Shown: positions 30,148 through 60,829 of the stretch, one piece after another
Position numbering within the stretch: position 1 is the stretch's first letter
How the letters are laid out: each line of letters begins with the position of its first letter
Origin: Deltaproteobacteria bacterium
GTDB taxonomy: Bacteria > Desulfobacterota > Binatia > Binatales > Binataceae
Assembly (NCBI GenBank): GCA_021780225.1
Contig: JAJXZF010000040.1
Location: 30,919 to 94,918, forward strand
DNA: 64,000 nt
Direction: 5' to 3'
Notes under the pieces: model-generated
What the model saw: only the letters and a program-made list of their open reading frames with translations
Database searches by the model: none
What the model was told of the DNA's origin: nothing
Position numbers and translations under genes: made by a program

Positions 30148-30191
30148 AGCCGCAAAGATTTTTGTGATGGGATTTTTCGCTCCGGGAACTT

Positions 30192-30260
30192 GCGCTCAGA
30201 ATGACCGTGAAGTTGCGGTTCAGGTTGTCATTCTGAGCGCAGCGAAGAATCCATCTTCTC
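30192..30260. repeat. REP/MITE-like palindromic unit (14-bp perfect inverted repeat plus a second short hairpin)
   Basis: GCGCTCAGAATGAC (30192-30205) and GTCATTCTGAGCGC (30227-30240) around a 21-nt spacer, followed by GAAGAATCCATCTTC. Sits 45 nt downstream of the CoA-transferase stop with no U-tract. Confidence 0.5.
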
Positions 30261-30371
30261 AGCTTTTCGCTCCAAAATGTCCGGAATACGCGGGTGCGCT
30301 TTCAAATTCCTTGACGTTCGATTTGCTCCGCGCCAACGATCGATCAGGGTCCGCAACGAAAGGAATCCGCG

Positions 30372-30545
30372 ATGCCAACCCTGGAAATGACCGCCGAGGA
30401 AGCGGAGGAACTGCGCTTCGTGCTGGAGAACTATTTCGCCGAACTGCGGATGGAGATCGAGCGCACCGAAAGCGGCGCCTTCCGCGCCAAGCTCAAGGAC
30501 CGCGAAAATCTGATCAAGCGCATGCTCGACGACCTCTCGAAATAA
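30372..30545 (+). CDS. small highly charged helical protein (57 aa), hypothetical; absent from the ORF track
   Basis: The ATG is preceded by AAAGGAA. Pronounced GC third-position bias. Sequence MPTLEMTAEEAEELRFVLENYFAELRMEIERTESGAFRAKLKDRENLIKRMLDDLSK. The antisense 126-aa track ORF is rejected. Confidence 0.45.
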   Translation: MPTLEMTAEEAEELRFVLENYFAELRMEIERTESGAFRAKLKDRENLIKRMLDDLSK

Positions 30546-30617
30546 TCGCTGAACCGGCGCTCGCTTGGGTTCGGCATTACGTGCAAAATCATACCCTACG
30601 GTACTCAAGGGTTGCGC

Positions 30618-31112
30618 CTATGAATCGTCTCTGTAGACGGCGTATCCATTCTTCTGCGCCCAATCCTCAGAGAACCCCACGTGCGAAATGGCGTTTCTAC
30701 TCGCGTCCAATTGGCGTTTCGCTTCCTTGACCACGATTTCAGGCTGCAATTTGTAAATTACCTTGCACTTCATTTGATCGCTCGCATAGAATACCGCGAA
30801 ATAAATATAACGATTTCGCGTGATGCGATTGAGCGACTCGTTACGTTTGTTTGTGGGCTCTTTAAACATCCGATCAAGTTGGCCTGTTCCGCCTTCCTTG
30901 CACGAAAGATATTCGTATTTCTCTTCCGGGTTATCCAAGGCATGCGCATCGGCATCACGTTTTGAGTGAATGAGCTCGTGCCCAAGGATATCAGCAATAA
31001 TCATTTCTTTCACTAACCCGGGTTGGAGCAGATTCTCAATACCAATCGACCGTGCAATCTTTGCCGCCCTAATCACAAGATCAATGATCTTGCGGTAAAT
31101 ATCGCGCGCCAT
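30618..31112 (-). CDS. putative type II restriction endonuclease, PvuII-like
   Basis: 164 aa. The segment KRDADAHALDNPEEKYEYLSCK resembles the R.PvuII catalytic segment (GNDAVDNAGQEYELK). Its start overlaps the MTase stop. Confidence 0.45.
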   Translation of the reverse strand: MARDIYRKIIDLVIRAAKIARSIGIENLLQPGLVKEMIIADILGHELIHSKRDADAHALDNPEEKYEYLSCKEGGTGQLDRMFKEPTNKRNESLNRITRNRYIYFAVFYASDQMKCKVIYKLQPEIVVKEAKRQLDASRNAISHVGFSEDWAQKNGYAVYRDDS

Positions 31113-31113
31113 G

Positions 31114-31926
31114 TCAGAATAGCCTTGCGGCTAGATCGTTATTTACTTTCTTCAACCGACTATTTACGGTCGCGGCGAATTCACGATTCCATTCAAATGC
31201 GATGAAGTGTCTGTTGAGCTCTCTGCAAACAGCAGGACAGGTTCCAACACCAGCGAACGGATCTAGAACAAGATCACCTTCGATCGAACTCGCTTGGAGA
31301 AGCCTGTCGATGAGTTTAGCTGGTTTTTGGATCGTGTTGAGAAATTCCCTACTAACAAGCTCTTTTGATCTATACGTGAGTTGTTTGATATCGCCCCATA
31401 CGTCCCCTGGATTCTTGCCTTCGTGGTGAAATTTCGTTCTACCAAATTTCCCATTCAAGACAGAGGGAACTCTCTCGCATCGGAGGCGATGTTCCAACTC
31501 CACAAGTTGTGGAACTCGGATCGCATCCAGATTAAAGACTCTAGGCTTGTCACCCTTAATAAAATAACAGATGATATCATAATTATTTGTGTAATTAATT
31601 CTGCCTTGAGCGAGCCTGCTTGGCTGATACCAGACGATCTTGGACCGGAGGTTCAGATAGGGTCGATAATCTATGAAATCGATACAGTCCGGCTTCCCAA
31701 AAAGATATAGTGCTCCTCCTTCTTTCAATTTCCGCGCAAAAATCTGGATTAATTCGAGATTGAACTCCTGAATACTCGGAATCCGATCCCACCTATTGGC
31801 CGTCACACCATACGGACCGTCGCAAATAACCAGATCAACCGTTCCGTCTTCAATCTTTGGGAACATCTCGAAGGCGTCAGCACAGTAGATGCGGTCAATT
31901 TCTAGCATTGCTCGAACACTTCCCAC
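31114..31926 (-). CDS. DNA methyltransferase, beta-class (N4-cytosine or N6-adenine)
   Basis: Motif IV-like LVICDGPYG near the N-terminus and motif I LDPFAGVGT near the C-terminus (beta permutation); 270 aa. Confidence 0.8.
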   Translation of the reverse strand: MGSVRAMLEIDRIYCADAFEMFPKIEDGTVDLVICDGPYGVTANRWDRIPSIQEFNLELIQIFARKLKEGGALYLFGKPDCIDFIDYRPYLNLRSKIVWYQPSRLAQGRINYTNNYDIICYFIKGDKPRVFNLDAIRVPQLVELEHRLRCERVPSVLNGKFGRTKFHHEGKNPGDVWGDIKQLTYRSKELVSREFLNTIQKPAKLIDRLLQASSIEGDLVLDPFAGVGTCPAVCRELNRHFIAFEWNREFAATVNSRLKKVNNDLAARLF

Positions 31927-32135
31927 ATGCGCTCAGCGGGGTTGGTGGCCGCTCAGCCGGAGTCACGAGGTTTCTATGTCGCCCGGTTTATAAACGCTGC
32001 GTGCTTTGTCCGGATATGGAGTGATTCATATGCGTGAAATCGGTTGAAATCGAGGCCAAAATAGAGATCACAATTCACGCCGCCGGCAGGTCCAGCCATC
32101 GTCTCCCGCGTATAATTTAAAAAGGCTCAGAGACG

Positions 32136-33278
32136 TCAGTTCGTCGCGGCGCGTTCACCGATCAGGCGATCGACCTCCGACTTCAACCGCGGCAGCACGT
32201 CGTCGTATTTGAAGTTGCCGAGCTTCTGCGCCTTGCGCTTCAGATTGACCGTCGTCGGCCCGCACCACAGCCCCAAATCGGCGTCGTCGGTCTCGCCCGG
32301 GCCGTTGACCCTGCAGCCCATCACCGCGATCGTGATTTTGTATTGCGCCGCGTAGGCGGTCAGTTCCTTGACCTGCTGCGCCAGCTCGACGAATTTCTCG
32401 TTTTCCACGCGCGAGCACGACGGGCACGAGATGATGTTCAGGCCCGAGCCGAAATCCGGCGCCGAGATGAACCGGCCGGCCCGCACGTCCTCGACGATCT
32501 GGTGGCCGACCAGCACTTCTTCGTGCTTGCGCTCGTTCGGCAGCGTCAGCGAAACCCGAATCGTGTCGCCCACGTCCTGCGCCAGCAACTGCTCGAAGGC
32601 GACGCGGGTCTTGACGATGCCGTCGGGCGGCAGGCCCGCTTCGGTCACGCCCAGATGAATCGGCACGTCGGGGCGGCGCTGATGGAACCGGCGGTTGGCT
32701 TCGACCACCTTGGCCGGGTCGCTGTCCTTGAGCGACACGACGAAGCGGTCGAACCCATATTCCTCCATCAGCCCGCAATGCCATGCCGCCGACTCGACGA
32801 TCGCGGTCAACTGGTCGCCGGGATATTTCTCCAGGAAGGCGGGCGCCACCGAGCCGCAATTGACTCCGATCCGGATCGCAAGGTTGTTGTCGCGGGCCAC
32901 CTCGACCAGCCACTTGACCTTCTGCGGAATCGTTTTGGACTTCTCGATATGGTGCAGATGGCCGGGGTTGTAGCGAATCTTGTCAACGTATGGCGCGACC
33001 TTGCCGGCGATACGGTAGTTCTCCTGCAGATCGACCGAGAGGGTCACGCCCGGCGTCGCCGCGCGGATTTCCCTGAGCGCCGCCACCTCTTTTTCATTGT
33101 CGAGCGCGATTCGCACGATGCCGGCGCCGGCCGCCGCCAACTGCCGCGCCTGCGCGATCGTCGCGTCGATATCCATTGTGCGGGTCGCGCACATTGACTG
33201 CACCACAATCGGCGCGCCGCCGCCGACCTCGACGCCGCCAATTCGAATCCGCCTCGTCGTCCGTTCCGTCTCGCTCAT
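32136..33278 (-). CDS. ispG: 4-hydroxy-3-methylbut-2-enyl diphosphate synthase
   Basis: 380 aa with the GcpE TIM-barrel N-terminal domain and C-terminal 4Fe-4S Cys motif (CPSCSR...GC). Confidence 0.9.
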
Positions 33279-33636: not shown

Positions 33637-34088
33637 CGCGGATCCTCCTGGACGCCAGCCGCCGGACGCGCCGCGGCGTCCGTATGCCGTCGCGTCACGC
33701 TTTCGCCAACCGCCATCGCCGTGGCGCTCGGGCTGGCCGATTAAATATAGCAGACGGCCGCGCGGCGGCCATCCAGACCCTCCAATGGCTCAATTCGGCC
33801 CGCTCGACGGTCGTCTCAAGGTTCGGCGCTAATGCCTCATTCTGAGATATTCCAGTCTATTCTTGCCAATTAGAAGCAAAATAACCAACGTATCCATACG
33901 GCATGAAATCACAAAAAATTACAAAAAATTCAGTGTCAAATGACTTGCGTACATGTTTTCTTGATGCTAATAGAGCTTTAGCAGTATCTATGGCGGTCAG
34001 ACGTGCCTGAAAGGGCAGATCCGCAACGCCTGGTGGTTGGACCAGTTTTTGATATGCGAATCGCTCGTTCAGGAAGGAGCGGATAGCG

Positions 34089-34535
34089 ATGGATCAGGCG
34101 AAGCACGAAATGGACGCGATGGACTCGATCGGGTTTGCCGACATCATTCTTCCCAGCCAGTTTTACGGCGCGATGGGCGGGGGCGCTTTGTGCAGCGAAC
34201 AACGCCTGATGCTCGCGGTGCTGGTCGATGCGATCAACATCTTGCAGGGATGGAACCGCACGGGTAGCGCGCGCAAGCGCCGGGCGTTCGCCGAAGCCGG
34301 ACAATGGGTCGGCGCCCGGGGCACGTCTTATCCGTTTTCGTTCGACAGCGTTTGCGACGCGCTCGGAATCGATTCCGAAGTATTGCGCGGCCGGCTTGGA
34401 CCGCTGGCGATCGGTCACGGCGGAATCGACCGGATGGGTGGACGGCTGCGCCTGAAGGAATCCAGCCGTGCGCAGCATATGACGGCGAATCGCATCCGTC
34501 GGCGCAAACGGGACCGGATGGTCGCGGCGCGCTGA
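34089..34535 (+). CDS. hypothetical protein (148 aa), first gene of a three-gene accessory module
   Basis: GGAAGGAG RBS 7 nt before the ATG. High GC3. Basic C-terminal tail (RIRRRKRDR). No recognisable domain. Confidence 0.6.
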   Translation: MDQAKHEMDAMDSIGFADIILPSQFYGAMGGGALCSEQRLMLAVLVDAINILQGWNRTGSARKRRAFAEAGQWVGARGTSYPFSFDSVCDALGIDSEVLRGRLGPLAIGHGGIDRMGGRLRLKESSRAQHMTANRIRRRKRDRMVAAR

Positions 34536-36421: not shown

Positions 36422-36859
36422 ATGTCGCGAAAGGTTCCGGCGGTTCGTTTGAAGCAGCACGTGGTAAAGCGCGGGCGGGTGCTGGCCGCATCTTTGGTCG
36501 CAATCGCCACACTATCGTCTTCCGCAAAGAGCGCAGCCGCTCCGGCCGCTCTCTACCAACAGCAGTGCGCGCGATGCCACGGCGCGGACGGCGCCGCCGA
36601 AAGCCGTTCAGACTCCGGCAGCGCGTTGCCATCGCATAGTTTGCGCGATTGCTCCTGGATGGACCTGATGTCGAACGCGACGCTGTTTCTCGCGATCAAA
36701 AATGGCGGCGGCGCAATCGGCATTAGCCCCTCGATGCCCGCGTTCAGCGGCCATCTGACAAACGACGAAATGGCGGGATTGGTAAGCTATATCCGGGGTT
36801 TTTGCGCCGAACCTGAGCCACGGACCGACTCGATTATCATCCCCTCGGCGCGCCGCTGA
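36422..36859 (+). CDS. c-type cytochrome (class I, monoheme)
   Basis: Signal peptide, CARCHG heme-binding motif and a downstream Met ligand region. Confidence 0.7.
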   Translation: MSRKVPAVRLKQHVVKRGRVLAASLVAIATLSSSAKSAAAPAALYQQQCARCHGADGAAESRSDSGSALPSHSLRDCSWMDLMSNATLFLAIKNGGGAIGISPSMPAFSGHLTNDEMAGLVSYIRGFCAEPEPRTDSIIIPSARR

Positions 36860-37274
36860 GCGCCAATCGTACGATCCAGGCTGGCTCGACGCCGGGATCG
36901 GCTGGGCATCAGCCTCGGATACCGGTCCAAATTTATCCAAATCAGCCTGAAATAATTAAGAACCTGGATCGTCTATATTTCGAGGGCATTACGAAGCGTC
37001 TCTCAACCATGGTAGAGATCGTCCGACTTTCGCACTCATGGAGGTTGCGGCGCAAAACAGCATCAAAGCTTGAAATTGCAATAACATCAGTCTATAAAAT
37101 CTAGATAACAGCTGATTTTGAATCGTTTGACAAAATTTCGGATGTTTCGCCATGATTCGTGAGTTGTGGATAAAATCTGATGAAATGAGCTAGATTTCCT
37201 AGCAAATTTCGTTACATGGCTGCTAAAATGAGTGTTGATCACCATTCCTTAGGTTGAGCCAAAGAGGAGATAAC

Positions 37275-37780: not shown

Positions 37781-39430
37781 TTGCCGGATGATCATAAGTT
37801 GATCAAAACTGGCAACGCGATGATGTCCTCACCCGAAGCCGAACGCTTCCGCACCCTCTACGAGCTCGGCTGCGCCTTTTCGGCAAAGACGGAACTCGCC
37901 GAACTTGTTCCTTACGTGATCGAGAAATGCCGCGAGGCTTTGAATGCCGAAGCCGCTTCGGTCCTGATGCTCGATCGGGACCGCAATGAACTTTACTTTC
38001 CGTACGTGTCGGACTCGAACCAGGGCGTGGCCGACGTGTTGCGCAGCCTGCGGCTGCCGGCCGACAAGGGCATCGCCGGCGCGGCGTTGAACCATAATCA
38101 AACCATCGTCGTGAATGACGCTCAGAATGACGCGCGGCTTTACCGCGCGATCGATCGCCAGACCGGCGCCGTGACGCGCAGCCTTGTCGCCACGCCGCTG
38201 CAAGGCCGCAATGGCGTGATCGGCGTGCTTGAAATTCTCAATCGGCGCGGAAACGGGACCTTCGACAACAGCGATATCGCATTTCTCGAGGCGGTTTCGG
38301 AAAGCATCGCGATCGCGATCGAAAACGCCAGCCTCTACGCGCAGCTTCGCGACTCCGAAGCGATCCTGCGCACTCAAGTCGGCGCTTTGCGCCGCGATCT
38401 CGCCAAGAACGACCTCTTTACGGAAATCATCGGCTCGAGCGCGCCGATGTTTGAAGTATTCCAGCTCATGGAAGCGGCGGCCACGTCTTCGATCGCCGTA
38501 ATGATTCAGGGCGATACGGGAACCGGAAAGGAATTGGTCGCGCGCGGAATCCATCGCGCCAGCGCGCGGTGCGAGGCGCCGTTCGTCGCGGTCAATTGCG
38601 CGGCGATGCCGGAGACGCTGCTCGAAAGCGAATTGTTCGGGCATCGCAAAGGAGCCTTTACCGGCGCGATCCGGGACAACCCCGGCGTCTTTCGAGCCGC
38701 GTCGGGAGGCGTGGTTTTTCTCGATGAAGTCGCGGAAATGCCAGTTCGGATGCAGGCCAAGCTGCTGCGGGTTCTCGAACAGGAGGAAGTGATTCCGGTC
38801 GGCGAAACCTTTCCGGTGCGCGTCGATGTGAGAATCGTCTCGGCCACCAATCGCGACTTGAAGACGGAGATCGCCGCGGGCGCATTTCGGGAAGATCTCT
38901 ACTACCGGCTTGCGGCCTTCCCGATCCGGCTGCCTCCGCTGCGCGCCCGGCGGGAAGATATCGAATCGCTCGCGAGCCGTTTCCTGACCGTCTCCGCCGA
39001 ACGCCATCACAAGCGTCTGGCCGGTTTCGATCCCGCGGTGCTCGCGATCTTTTCCAACTACGATTGGCCGGGCAATGTGCGGCAGTTGCGCAATGAAATC
39101 GATCGCGCCGTCGCGATGGCGCGCGAGGGCGACACTATCGGCGTGCCTCAGCTCTCCCAGGATTTGCGAGCGGCTGCAAGCCATTCCGCGCCGATCAAAG
39201 CCGACGCCGCGACTGCGTCCGCGCCGGTCACAGCCGCCTCCGCCGCCGACGGCGTTGAGGGTCACGAGAGCCACACTCGTTCGCTACGGCAGGCGCGCGC
39301 GGAATTCGAAGCTGCTTTCATCAATGAGGCTCTGGCGCGCCATCACGGCAACGTCTCGCGCGCGGCGCAGGCGCTGGGGATTTCGCGCCCCGCGCTGCAA
39401 GAGAAGATAAAAACCTACCATCTCCGATAA
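37781..39430 (+). CDS. sigma-54-dependent transcriptional activator with N-terminal GAF domain (Fis-type C-terminal HTH)
   Basis: GAF domain, AAA+ domain with Walker A GDTGTGKE and GAFTGA motif, and C-terminal HTH. Alternative start ATG 37820. Confidence 0.88.
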   Translation: MPDDHKLIKTGNAMMSSPEAERFRTLYELGCAFSAKTELAELVPYVIEKCREALNAEAASVLMLDRDRNELYFPYVSDSNQGVADVLRSLRLPADKGIAGAALNHNQTIVVNDAQNDARLYRAIDRQTGAVTRSLVATPLQGRNGVIGVLEILNRRGNGTFDNSDIAFLEAVSESIAIAIENASLYAQLRDSEAILRTQVGALRRDLAKNDLFTEIIGSSAPMFEVFQLMEAAATSSIAVMIQGDTGTGKELVARGIHRASARCEAPFVAVNCAAMPETLLESELFGHRKGAFTGAIRDNPGVFRAASGGVVFLDEVAEMPVRMQAKLLRVLEQEEVIPVGETFPVRVDVRIVSATNRDLKTEIAAGAFREDLYYRLAAFPIRLPPLRARREDIESLASRFLTVSAERHHKRLAGFDPAVLAIFSNYDWPGNVRQLRNEIDRAVAMAREGDTIGVPQLSQDLRAAASHSAPIKADAATASAPVTAASAADGVEGHESHTRSLRQARAEFEAAFINEALARHHGNVSRAAQALGISRPALQEKIKTYHLR

Positions 39431-60085: not shown

Positions 60086-60292
60086 TCACCCGAGATTGCG
60101 AAGCTCTTCGAGTTGCGCAGCGCCCTGATGCATCCGCCACTCGTCGATCGCCTCGACGTTAAAGCGCCAGTCGCTGCCAATCTTGAAGCCGGGCAATTGC
60201 CCCTTCTTCAGCAACCGGTAGATGGTCGAGCGATGAACGCGCAGATAATCGGAAAGCTCGCTGACAGTCAGGACTTTTGCATCGGCCAACAT
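60086..60292 (-). CDS. excisionase-family helix-turn-helix DNA-binding protein (paralog of 37275-37526)
   Basis: Start ATG 60292. LTVSELSDYLRVHRSTIYRLLKKGQLPGFKIGSDWRF is more than 60% identical to the other copy. The track ORF carries a junk N-terminal extension. Confidence 0.65.
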   Translation of the reverse strand: MLADAKVLTVSELSDYLRVHRSTIYRLLKKGQLPGFKIGSDWRFNVEAIDEWRMHQGAAQLEELRNLG

Positions 60293-60829
60293 TGCAGATT
60301 TCTTCCTTTTCTCGCGCCCTTGCCGCGCGCCATCCGCCTCAGCACTCTGATGCGGGGCGGGGTTTGGACGCGGGACGCTGTTTTGCCTCGAACTTCTCAT
60401 CGTAAGATCATTCCGCCTTGATCGGTCTTGTCGTCGCGACAGTCGCGCCACGCTGACAGCTCAAGTTAAAAACCTTACCGACCTCTGAACCGCGCTTTTA
60501 GCGTTCTGACGACGCGGATATAGACAATCTGATTAGAATAATTGCAGGCCATGATCAAGCTGTCGTTTAATGATTCTACAGATTTTTTCATTCGTTTTAT
60601 AGCTACAAACGACGCTTTAGCTGCACATTCAAACTTCCCCGCCTTGACCGGGAAAGCATGCGCTCGATTCAATGGCTTAATCGAAAGGCTTTCGCCTTAT
60701 AAGACGTGCATTCTCCGATTCGGTTACAGAAATCTTTGCGATCGATCTTGCGAGACAACGACCGTCGATAAGAGCGCAACCGCGCTTGCGGCGTGACGCG
60801 CGTTGCCGCGACAATGGCGGGAGTTCGCG

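What the first reader, a model, noticed from the sequence alone, without database searches (positions are those of the whole stretch)
30560..32135. Low-GC restriction-modification island with a PvuII-like nuclease and an atypical DGPY methyltransferase, inserted next to ispG
GC content falls abruptly over about 1.5 kb, and the two genes in that stretch use AT-ending codons unlike every other gene in the window. The 270-aa protein is a beta-class MTase (motif I LDPFAGVGT at the C-terminus). Its motif IV reads DGPY rather than the canonical D/N/S-PPY. The downstream 164-aa protein, coupled by start/stop overlap, has a segment DADAHALDNPEEKYEYLSCK and an N-terminal hydrophobic block resembling R.PvuII (DAVDNAGQEYELK catalytic segment). 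This suggests an M-to-R ordered PvuII-family type II system with no visible C (controller) gene. The island sits between a CoA-transferase and ispG, and REP-like hairpins mark its left edge.
Basis: partly seen in the sequence, partly recalled or inferred. Interest (0 to 1): 0.6.

Follow-up and report, generated by a model that had tools for sequence, protein, structure and literature searches.

The report
Foreign restriction-modification gene pair, PvuII-fold nuclease
A 1.6-kb low-GC piece of foreign DNA inserted just after ispG in a Candidatus Binataceae genome carries a two-gene restriction-modification system whose nuclease belongs to a widespread, unannotated, distant branch of the PvuII restriction-enzyme superfamily; it is an ordinary kind of system with a few unusual sequence features.

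Summary
Window 30546-32135 is the lowest-GC stretch of the 64 kb (0.44-0.47 against 0.63). It holds two minus-strand genes: a 264-aa beta-class DNA amino-methyltransferase (31114-31908) and a 164-aa protein (30618-31112), joined by TGAcATG. Their GC3 is 0.47 and 0.55, against 0.75-0.86 in neighbouring genes.

The two closest relatives (ispG 94% identical, collinear for about 17 kb) have only about 48 bp at this spot, and none of 80 related loci has either gene. So this is a recent insertion.

The methyltransferase resembles N6-adenine enzymes (M.MboIIA), not M.PvuII. Its DGPY motif is conserved in 69 of 70 partner enzymes. The pair is linked in 78 of 80 loci with room.

Verdict: a type II restriction-modification module of unknown, non-PvuII specificity. 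It is a new variant of a known kind, of moderate-to-low interest.

The parts
30546..32135 (.). Inserted segment (about 1.59 kb) in the tail-to-tail spacer between ispG and the 57-aa ORF; relatives L008 and L009 have only about 48 bp here.
   Evidence: blastn collinearity with L008/L009 breaks at window about 32138-32159 and resumes at about 30538-30539. Relatives' spacer read directly. Lowest GC of the window.
31114..31908 (-). M gene: 264-aa beta-class DNA amino-methyltransferase. The mechanical ORF extends to a GTG at 31926 (270 aa), but homologues start at this ATG.
   Evidence: PF01555 E 8e-33. Best solved relative is M.MboIIA, E 3.8e-26. PADLOC MTase_II 1.5e-40. 2460 homologues, the top 120 at 73-80% identity.
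31810..31821 (-). Motif IV, DGPY (residues 30-33), in place of the canonical (D/N/S)PPY.
   Evidence: Aligned to DPPY of M.MboIIA. C29-D-G-P-Y-G34 invariant in 30 of 30 homologues. DGPY in 69 and DGPF in 1 of 70 partner methyltransferases.
31240..31266 (-). Motif I, LDPFAGVGT (residues 215-223), the SAM-binding loop. Its C-terminal position gives the beta-class order.
   Evidence: Read from the sequence. Aligned to the corresponding motif of M.MboIIA. D216 P217 F218 G220 V221 G222 T223 invariant.
31110..31116 (-). M-R junction TGAcATG: M stop, 1-nt spacer, R start. Inferred to give translational coupling.
   Evidence: Sequence. The same 4-nt distance between the end of M and the start of R in most of 78 loci. 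A 4-nt overlap in Thermosynechococcus.
30618..31112 (-). R gene: 164-aa PvuII-fold PD-(D/E)xK protein, the putative restriction endonuclease.
30897..30956 (-). Predicted active-site hairpin, residues 53-72 (DADAHALDNPEEKYEYLSCK). D55 aligns with PvuII D58, E67 with E68, and L69 with K70.
   Evidence: hhalign residue mapping. D55 in 47 of 51, E67 in 47 of 51, and position 69 always L/F/V/I/C in the broad family.
31909..32135 (-). 227-bp upstream spacer (GC 0.53). It is unique to this insertion, has no C-protein ORF, and presumably carries the promoter.
   Evidence: Not shared with other modules or with relatives. The only minus-strand ORFs are 41 aa or shorter. No sigma-70-like site on the minus strand.
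30546..30617 (-). 72-bp downstream spacer between the R stop and the stop of the 57-aa ORF.
   Evidence: No significant structure and no terminal repeats.
32136..33278 (-). ispG (GcpE), the native right-hand neighbour, on the same strand as M-R.
   Evidence: PF04551 2.7e-100. 94% identical in L008/L009.
30372..30545 (+). Native 57-aa ORF, the left-hand neighbour, convergent with R.
   Evidence: 91% identical in L008/L009, lying 48 bp from ispG there.

Best explanation
This is a horizontally acquired, two-gene type II restriction-modification module.

The upstream gene encodes a beta-class SAM-dependent DNA amino-methyltransferase. It most probably methylates adenine N6 (inferred) in a short specific sequence and so protects the host chromosome.

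The downstream gene encodes a small PvuII-fold PD-(D/E)xK endonuclease. It is inferred to act as a homodimer on the same, probably palindromic, site when that site is unmethylated. Metal ions would be held by D55 and E67, perhaps with help from E36. Cleavage of both strands is probably blunt, as in the PvuII/EcoRV lineage.

The canonical catalytic lysine (PvuII K70) is replaced by a hydrophobic residue throughout the family. A lysine from elsewhere, with K51 the best candidate, is inferred to take its place.

There is no C protein. The order M then R with a TGAnATG junction suggests that R is translated only by ribosomes that have finished M, which keeps R low and late.

The recognition sequence is unknown. 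It is unlikely to be CAGCTG, because the positions that read DNA in PvuII differ.

Shown here: the insertion, the fold, the remote homology, the motif conservation and the gene linkage. Inferred: nuclease activity, the target base, the cleavage geometry, the translational coupling and the lysine relocation.
For: Foreign origin:
- GC and GC3 contrast with the flanks.
- The module is absent from the collinear closest relatives and from 80 of 80 related loci.
- The identical arrangement appears in contigs from four separate samples.
- The module has lower GC than its flanks in 32 of 35 other hosts.

Methyltransferase:
- PF01555, E 8e-33.
- Full-length alignment to M.MboIIA, then to M.RsrI and CcrM (N6-adenine enzymes). 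N4-cytosine enzymes appear only at E about 2e-5.
- DGPY is invariant.

Nuclease:
- AF2 model with pLDDT 90.4.
- R.PvuII takes the first 10 Foldseek ranks, TM 0.60-0.64.
- hhalign of the family against the PvuII family: 96.3%, E 1.9e-9, 155 columns.
- 22 of 51 divergent members hit PF09225.
- The D55 and E67 equivalents are nearly invariant.

Linkage:
- M lies immediately upstream on the same strand in 78 of 83 loci; 3 of the other 5 have no room upstream.
- The pair occurs in hosts as diverse as Planctomycetota, Verrucomicrobia, an archaeon and Thermosynechococcus.
- DNA similarity between copies ends within 3 nt of the M start and the R stop.
Against: - No biochemical data exist for any member.
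- The window protein has no sequence-level hit to PF09225 or to any PADLOC REase model.
- The canonical ExK lysine is missing: Leu69 here, hydrophobic in 51 of 51 members.
- Motif IV has Gly where nearly all characterised amino-methyltransferases have Pro, and its catalytic competence is untested.
- No promoter-like or terminator-like site was found on the coding strand.
- Two phage contigs carry the R homologue without this methyltransferase. The nuclease can therefore exist outside the pair.
Confidence: 0.85

Rival explanations
1. It is a true PvuII-type system, an isoschizomer: R cuts CAGCTG, M makes N4-methylcytosine, and the only difference from the Proteus system is the loss of the C gene.
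For: R.PvuII is the best structural match and the best profile match.
Against: - The PvuII DNA-reading positions differ. H83-H84-H85 align with D80-R81-M82, N140-N141 with S143-H144, and D34 with P31.
- The window protein does not reach PF09225, whereas genuine PvuII homologues all carry it.
- The methyltransferase matches N6-adenine enzymes best, has Asp rather than Ser in motif IV, and does not find M.PvuII at E <= 0.001.
Confidence: 0.04
2. The 164-aa protein is not a classical restriction nuclease. Because it lacks the catalytic lysine, it could be an inactive DNA-binding partner or regulator of the methyltransferase. Alternatively it could be a modification-dependent nuclease like the next-best structural matches NhoI, Eco15I and DpnI.
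For: - Leu69 sits at the K70 position throughout the family.
- NhoI, Eco15I and DpnI are the next structural hits.
- Orphan copies occur in phage contigs.
Against: - The two metal-binding carboxylates, plus E36, H45 and K51, are conserved across members down to 24% identity. That pattern is expected for an enzyme, not for a degenerate binder.
- A methyl-dependent nuclease translationally coupled to a methyltransferase would be self-destructive.
- The strict M-R linkage and the repeated low-GC island context are the signature of a type II restriction-modification pair.
- Other PD-(D/E)xK restriction enzymes lack the Lys at this position, for example BamHI and BglII (my own knowledge, not tested here).
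Confidence: 0.08
3. The two genes are native to the lineage, or the low-GC block is an assembly chimera rather than a real insertion.
For: No integrase, transposase, tRNA, target-site duplication or terminal repeat marks the ends.
Against: - The identical arrangement, with both junctions, appears in contigs from four separate samples, including contigs of 69 kb and 52 kb.
- It is absent from 80 of 80 related loci.
- GC3 is 0.3-0.4 below every neighbouring gene.
Confidence: 0.02

Closest known systems
R.PvuII (Pfam PF09225 Endonuc-PvuII; PDB 1PVI, 1PVU, 1NI0, 3KSK)
   Same: - Same size (164 against 157 aa).
- The order of predicted helices and strands follows the PvuII alignment along the whole length.
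- Profile-profile match over 155 columns.
- The D58 and E68 equivalents are conserved.
- Encoded in a two-enzyme type II system.
   Different: - Only 14-17% identity; the window protein does not reach PF09225.
- K70 aligns with Leu69.
- The DNA-reading residues differ (D34, H83-85, N140-141).
- The partner methyltransferase is not M.PvuII-like.
- There is no C.PvuII controller, and the gene order is M then R on one strand.
NhoI / Eco15I N-terminal domain and DpnI (modification-dependent PD-(D/E)xK nucleases; PDB 8Q5N, 8Q5M, 4ESJ)
   Different: They cut methylated DNA and are not paired with a cognate methyltransferase. Here a methyltransferase is coupled directly upstream in 78 of 80 loci with room.
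M.MboIIA and M.RsrI (beta-class N6-adenine DNA methyltransferases, PF01555; PDB 1G60, 1EG2)
   Same: - Full-length alignment (E 3.8e-26 and 5.6e-15).
- Same permuted motif order: motif IV, then the target-recognition region, then motifs X and I.
   Different: - Motif IV is DGPY rather than DPPY.
- The target-recognition region is not alignable with confidence, so the specificity cannot be transferred.
- NCBIfam equivalog scores fall far below cut-off: 109.6 against 292 for PRK11524.

Membership tests
Type II restriction-modification system | A DNA methyltransferase with a SAM-binding motif I and a catalytic motif IV | tested here: met
   PF01555 E 8e-33. Motif I is LDPFAGVGT and motif IV is DGPY, both aligned to M.MboIIA.
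Type II restriction-modification system | A separate endonuclease gene adjacent to the methyltransferase and co-inherited with it | tested here: met
   The PvuII-fold protein lies 1 nt downstream. The pair is linked in 78 of 83 loci, and 3 of the other 5 lack room. It also occurs in unrelated genomes.
Type II restriction-modification system | The nuclease cleaves a defined site, and methylation of that same site by the partner blocks cleavage | not testable with these tools
   This needs a cleavage assay and a methylome. No literature or annotated homologue was found.
R.PvuII family (Pfam PF09225) | Sequence match to the family model above threshold | tested here: not met
   The window protein has no hit at E <= 1. 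Of 51 divergent relatives, 22 give weak hits, the best at 1.4e-5. Genuine PvuII homologues all carry PF09225.
R.PvuII family (Pfam PF09225) | PvuII three-dimensional fold | tested here: met
R.PvuII family (Pfam PF09225) | Catalytic triad D58 / E68 / K70 (PD...ExK) | tested here: not met
   D55 and E67 align with D58 and E68. Position 69 aligns with K70 and is L/F/V/I/C in 51 of 51 members.
R.PvuII family (Pfam PF09225) | CAGCTG-reading residues D34, H83-H85 and N140-N141 | tested here: not met
   These align to P31, D80-R81-M82 and S143-H144.
PvuII-type system architecture | N4-cytosine methyltransferase (SPPY) plus a C controller protein co-transcribed with R | tested here: not met
   The methyltransferase matches N6-adenine enzymes best, and M.PvuII is not found at E <= 0.001. 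There is no ORF above 41 aa upstream on the coding strand.
Beta-class N6/N4 DNA amino-methyltransferases (PF01555) | Permuted order with motif IV N-terminal and motifs X and I C-terminal | tested here: met
   DGPY at residues 30-33 and FxGxG at 218-222. The match to the Pfam model is end to end, positions 1-218 of 221.
Beta-class N6/N4 DNA amino-methyltransferases (PF01555) | Motif IV consensus (D/N/S)-P-P-(Y/F/W) | tested here: not met
   The second position is Gly. This is invariant in the subfamily, so it is a conserved variant and not a lesion.
Modification-dependent (type IV/IIM) PvuII-like nucleases (NhoI, Eco15I, DpnI) | Stand-alone nuclease with no cognate methyltransferase | tested here: not met
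   A methyltransferase is coupled directly upstream. Only the two phage copies are orphan.

The most novel reading that the evidence does not exclude
The 164-aa protein represents a large, environmentally widespread restriction-endonuclease family: at least 1466 90%-identity clusters and 165 50%-identity clusters. Pfam, NCBIfam and PADLOC all miss it. Under this reading the family has a new recognition specificity and a rearranged PD-(D/E)xK active site, with the lysine recruited from outside the ExK strand. It always works with a methyltransferase subfamily whose catalytic motif is DGPY. That would show the first proline of the (D/N/S)PPY motif to be dispensable in a DNA amino-methyltransferase.
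Probability: 0.5. Interest if true: 0.45.

Novelty: new variant of a known kind. Interest (0 to 1): 0.35.

Why it matters
It shows that a common environmental restriction nuclease family is invisible to the standard annotation and defence-finder libraries. In such genomes the methyltransferase would be called an orphan and the restriction-modification system would go uncounted.

If expressed, the family could yield a restriction enzyme of new specificity. It could also provide two small mechanistic lessons: a PvuII fold working without the ExK lysine, and a DGPY catalytic loop in a DNA amino-methyltransferase.

For the host genome it is simply a recent mobile defence or addiction module. It lies in a spot that also varies in relatives, which carry a NERD-helicase gene one gene away. 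Nothing here changes the general picture of restriction-modification biology.

Tried and rejected
- Sequence searches with the 164-aa protein found nothing. This covers Pfam and NCBIfam at E <= 1, PADLOC at E <= 0.01, PDB sequences with the single protein and with a profile, PLSDB plasmids and INPHARED phages by tblastn.
- hhalign of the narrow alignment A1 against the single PvuII sequence was weak (E 0.071). It became convincing only with broad profiles on both sides.
- The afdb50 fold library was unavailable. The BFVD viral library gave only unnamed, weak matches.
- Literature searches found nothing usable. I searched for DGPY in methyltransferases, for PvuII-like folds, and for a Thermosynechococcus methylome that could reveal the target site.
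- A search for a C-protein gene, a promoter or a terminator in the 227-bp leader found nothing.
- Rfam and tRNA scans, made to test for an RNA element or a tRNA-targeted island, found nothing.
- A search for target-site duplications or terminal inverted repeats at the island ends found only chance 8-mers. A shared TAGGCGCAA after the R stop and after ispG of L008 was considered and set aside as unconfirmed.
- The 'REP-like hairpins mark the left edge' claim is rejected. The hairpin lies in a different intergenic spacer and belongs to a separate indel.
- The search for related loci with the broad alignment A3 failed for lack of conserved stretches, so A1 was used instead.
- I did not try to infer the recognition site from palindrome avoidance. 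The island is recent, and only 64 kb of host sequence is available.

Full report
**1. The observation**

Two ORFs lie on the minus strand: 31114..31926 (270 aa from a GTG) and 30618..31112 (164 aa). Homologues and independent gene calls begin the first one at the ATG at 31908, giving 264 aa.

GC falls from about 0.65 to 0.43-0.47 across about 30600-31950. In 500-nt windows the minimum of the whole 64 kb, 0.436, lies here; the mean is 0.634 with sd 0.048. GC3 is 0.468 for the first gene and 0.545 for the second, against 0.75-0.86 for six neighbouring genes.

The junction is TGA-c-ATG, a 1-nt spacer and not an overlap.

**2. It is an insertion**

An ispG query retrieved 80 loci, nearly all from Candidatus Binataceae / Binatia metagenome-assembled genomes, which identifies the host lineage. 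None of the 80 has a homologue of either gene near ispG.

The two closest relatives, L008 and L009 (ispG 94% identical), are collinear with the window over about 17 kb. Collinearity breaks at window about 32138-32159 and resumes at about 30538. In both relatives the stop of ispG is separated by about 48 bp from the stop of a convergent 57-aa ORF. In the window these two stops are 1590 bp apart.

The same arrangement, with both junctions, occurs in contigs from four separate samples, so it is not a chimera.

There is no tRNA, Rfam hit, integrase, target duplication or terminal repeat at the ends. The insertion mechanism is therefore unknown.

**3. The methyltransferase**

- It matches PF01555 end to end (E 8e-33) and PADLOC type II methyltransferase models (1.5e-40).
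- Its best solved relatives are M.MboIIA (3.8e-26, full length), a pair of unnamed methyltransferases (8URK, 9C3U), M.RsrI and CcrM. N4-cytosine enzymes appear only at about 2e-5, and M.PvuII does not appear at all.
- Motif IV lies at residues 30-33 and motif I at residues 215-223, which is the beta-class order.
- DGPY aligns with DPPY of M.MboIIA. It is invariant in 30 of 30 aligned homologues. It is present in 69 of 70 partner methyltransferases from metagenomes, and the remaining one has DGPF. So it is a conserved subfamily trait.
- Adenine N6 as the target is an inference from the Asp in motif IV and from the nearest relatives.
- I found no literature on a DGPY motif in DNA methyltransferases in the searchable library.

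**4. The 164-aa protein**

It has no sequence hit in Pfam, NCBIfam, PADLOC or the PDB. It does have 1466 homologous 90%-identity clusters and 165 50%-identity representatives. The few that carry a source name are all called hypothetical.

Structure and profile evidence:
- An AlphaFold2 model built on 39 homologues is confident (pLDDT 90.4, pTM 0.86).
- Foldseek against the PDB gives R.PvuII in all of the first ten ranks (E 1.8e-6, TM 0.60-0.64), followed by NhoI, Eco15I and DpnI.
- I checked my recalled PvuII sequence against the PDB and it matched the wild-type PvuII chains over its full length. I then built a PvuII family alignment and compared it with a broad alignment of the new family, whose members are 24-66% identical to the query. 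hhalign gave 96.3% probability, E 1.9e-9 and 155 aligned columns.
- Scanned individually, 22 of the 51 divergent members hit PF09225 weakly (best 1.4e-5). The window protein itself does not.

The family is therefore a remote branch of the PvuII superfamily, not a member of the Pfam family.

**5. Active site and specificity**

In the profile alignment:

| Window protein | R.PvuII |
|---|---|
| D55 | D58 |
| E67 | E68 |
| L69 | K70 |
| P31 | D34 |
| D80-R81-M82 | H83-H84-H85 |
| S143-H144 | N140-N141 |

Conservation across the 51 broad-family sequences:

| Position | Residue count |
|---|---|
| D55 | 47 of 51 |
| E67 | 47 of 51 |
| E36 | 46 of 51 |
| H45 | 49 of 51 |
| K51 | 45 of 51 |
| K35 | K or R in 48 of 51 |
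| 69 | L/F/V/I/C in 51 of 51, never Lys |

I infer a metal site formed by D55 and E67, possibly with E36, and a lysine supplied from elsewhere, K51 being the best candidate. I could not verify this geometrically, because model coordinates are not exposed.

The PvuII residues that contact CAGCTG are known from the crystal structures (my own knowledge). They are all different here, so a different recognition sequence is expected.

**6. Linkage and mobility**

Among 83 loci carrying a homologue of the nuclease, 78 have the methyltransferase immediately upstream on the same strand. Three of the other five end too close to the gene to tell. The remaining two are phage contigs with an orphan copy.

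The usual distance is a stop codon plus 1 nt. In Thermosynechococcus the genes overlap by 4 nt.

Nucleotide similarity between copies stops within 3 nt of the M start codon and the R stop codon. The conserved unit is therefore the two ORFs alone.

In 32 of 35 loci with enough flank, the module has lower GC than its surroundings: mean 0.478 against 0.572. Hosts include Planctomycetota, Verrucomicrobia, an archaeon, Nitrospira and Thermosynechococcus. In one genome the pair sits beside an AlwI-type nuclease, another methyltransferase and type III CRISPR genes. All of this is typical of a frequently transferred restriction-modification cassette.

**7. Regulation**

The 227-bp leader has no ORF longer than 41 aa on the coding strand, so there is no C protein. 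The methyltransferase begins almost directly with motif IV, leaving no room for an N-terminal DNA-binding domain. No sigma-70-like promoter or intrinsic terminator was found on the coding strand.

I infer that the order M then R, together with the TGAnATG or ATGA junction, provides translational coupling. That would keep the nuclease low and dependent on prior methyltransferase translation. Read-through from ispG is possible, since it is on the same strand.

**8. Comparison and verdict**

The system works like a classical type IIP restriction-modification pair.
- Its nuclease is closest to R.PvuII in fold and remote homology. It fails three family-defining tests: the Pfam match, the ExK lysine and the recognition residues.
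- Its methyltransferase is M.MboIIA/RsrI-like, not M.PvuII-like, and it lacks the PvuII controller.
Minor errors are the claimed overlap, the hairpin as an edge marker, and the immediate left neighbour.

It is a new variant of a known kind. The interest is moderate to low. The value lies in flagging an unannotated, widespread nuclease family, an untested DGPY catalytic motif and a likely new specificity. Culturable Thermosynechococcus strains offer a route to test all three.

Noticed in passing
L008 9430-11206; L009 9499-11416; window 30149-30304: The closest relatives carry a gene of about 1.8 kb for a NERD + UvrD-like helicase between the 57-aa ORF and the CoA-transferase (Pfam NERD 8.9e-13; PADLOC 'NERD+UvrD' 3.7e-19). 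The window has instead a short spacer with a perfect 15-nt hairpin (30191-30205 / 30227-30241). This is a second indel, one gene away from the restriction-modification island, so the locus looks like a small defence hot spot.
   Followed up: partly
L168 3995-4480 and L169 (IMGVR_UViG_3300025676_000004, 134.8 kb; IMGVR_UViG_3300025770_000026): Two large phage contigs carry an orphan homologue of the nuclease (161 aa, 64% identical). It is followed by a dUTPase and a large polymerase-like ORF. No partner methyltransferase lies within 4 kb, and the viral collection holds no close homologue of the methyltransferase.
   Followed up: partly
L174 5001-6301 (CP096573.1) and L175 (CP134200.1), Thermosynechococcus sp.: Two complete genomes of a culturable thermophilic cyanobacterium carry the same pair between ileS and gltX: M of 266 aa at 75% identity, and R of 167 aa overlapping it by 4 nt. 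This is a convenient organism for a methylome and cleavage test.
   Followed up: partly
window 33800-34100, 36700-37100, 60200-60500: Three other short low-GC patches (0.46, 0.46 and 0.51 in 300-500-nt windows). What they contain was not examined.
   Followed up: no
window 30372-30545 (+): A conserved 57-aa ORF (91% identical in relatives) of unknown function. Its only hit is a weak NCBIfam RDAC-family match (E 0.017, below cut-off).
   Followed up: no
window 30191-30241; window 38117-38131; L014 33-47; L083 4549-4563: The 15-mer GTCATTCTGAGCGCA of the hairpin recurs once more in the window (with 2 mismatches) and in two other Binataceae loci. It may be a low-copy dispersed repeat of the lineage.
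   Followed up: partly
L005 3095-12043: In an unrelated 4.3-Mb contig the module sits in a defence cluster next to an AlwI-family nuclease, a second N6_N4 methyltransferase and type III CRISPR genes (RAMP, Csm1-like).
   Followed up: no
PvuII family proteins P0391-P0510: The genuine R.PvuII family (PF09225) shows the same pattern as the new family: thousands of proteins (4856 hits), with the 120 best listed hits mostly 70-80% identical to the query, from very different hosts.
   Followed up: no
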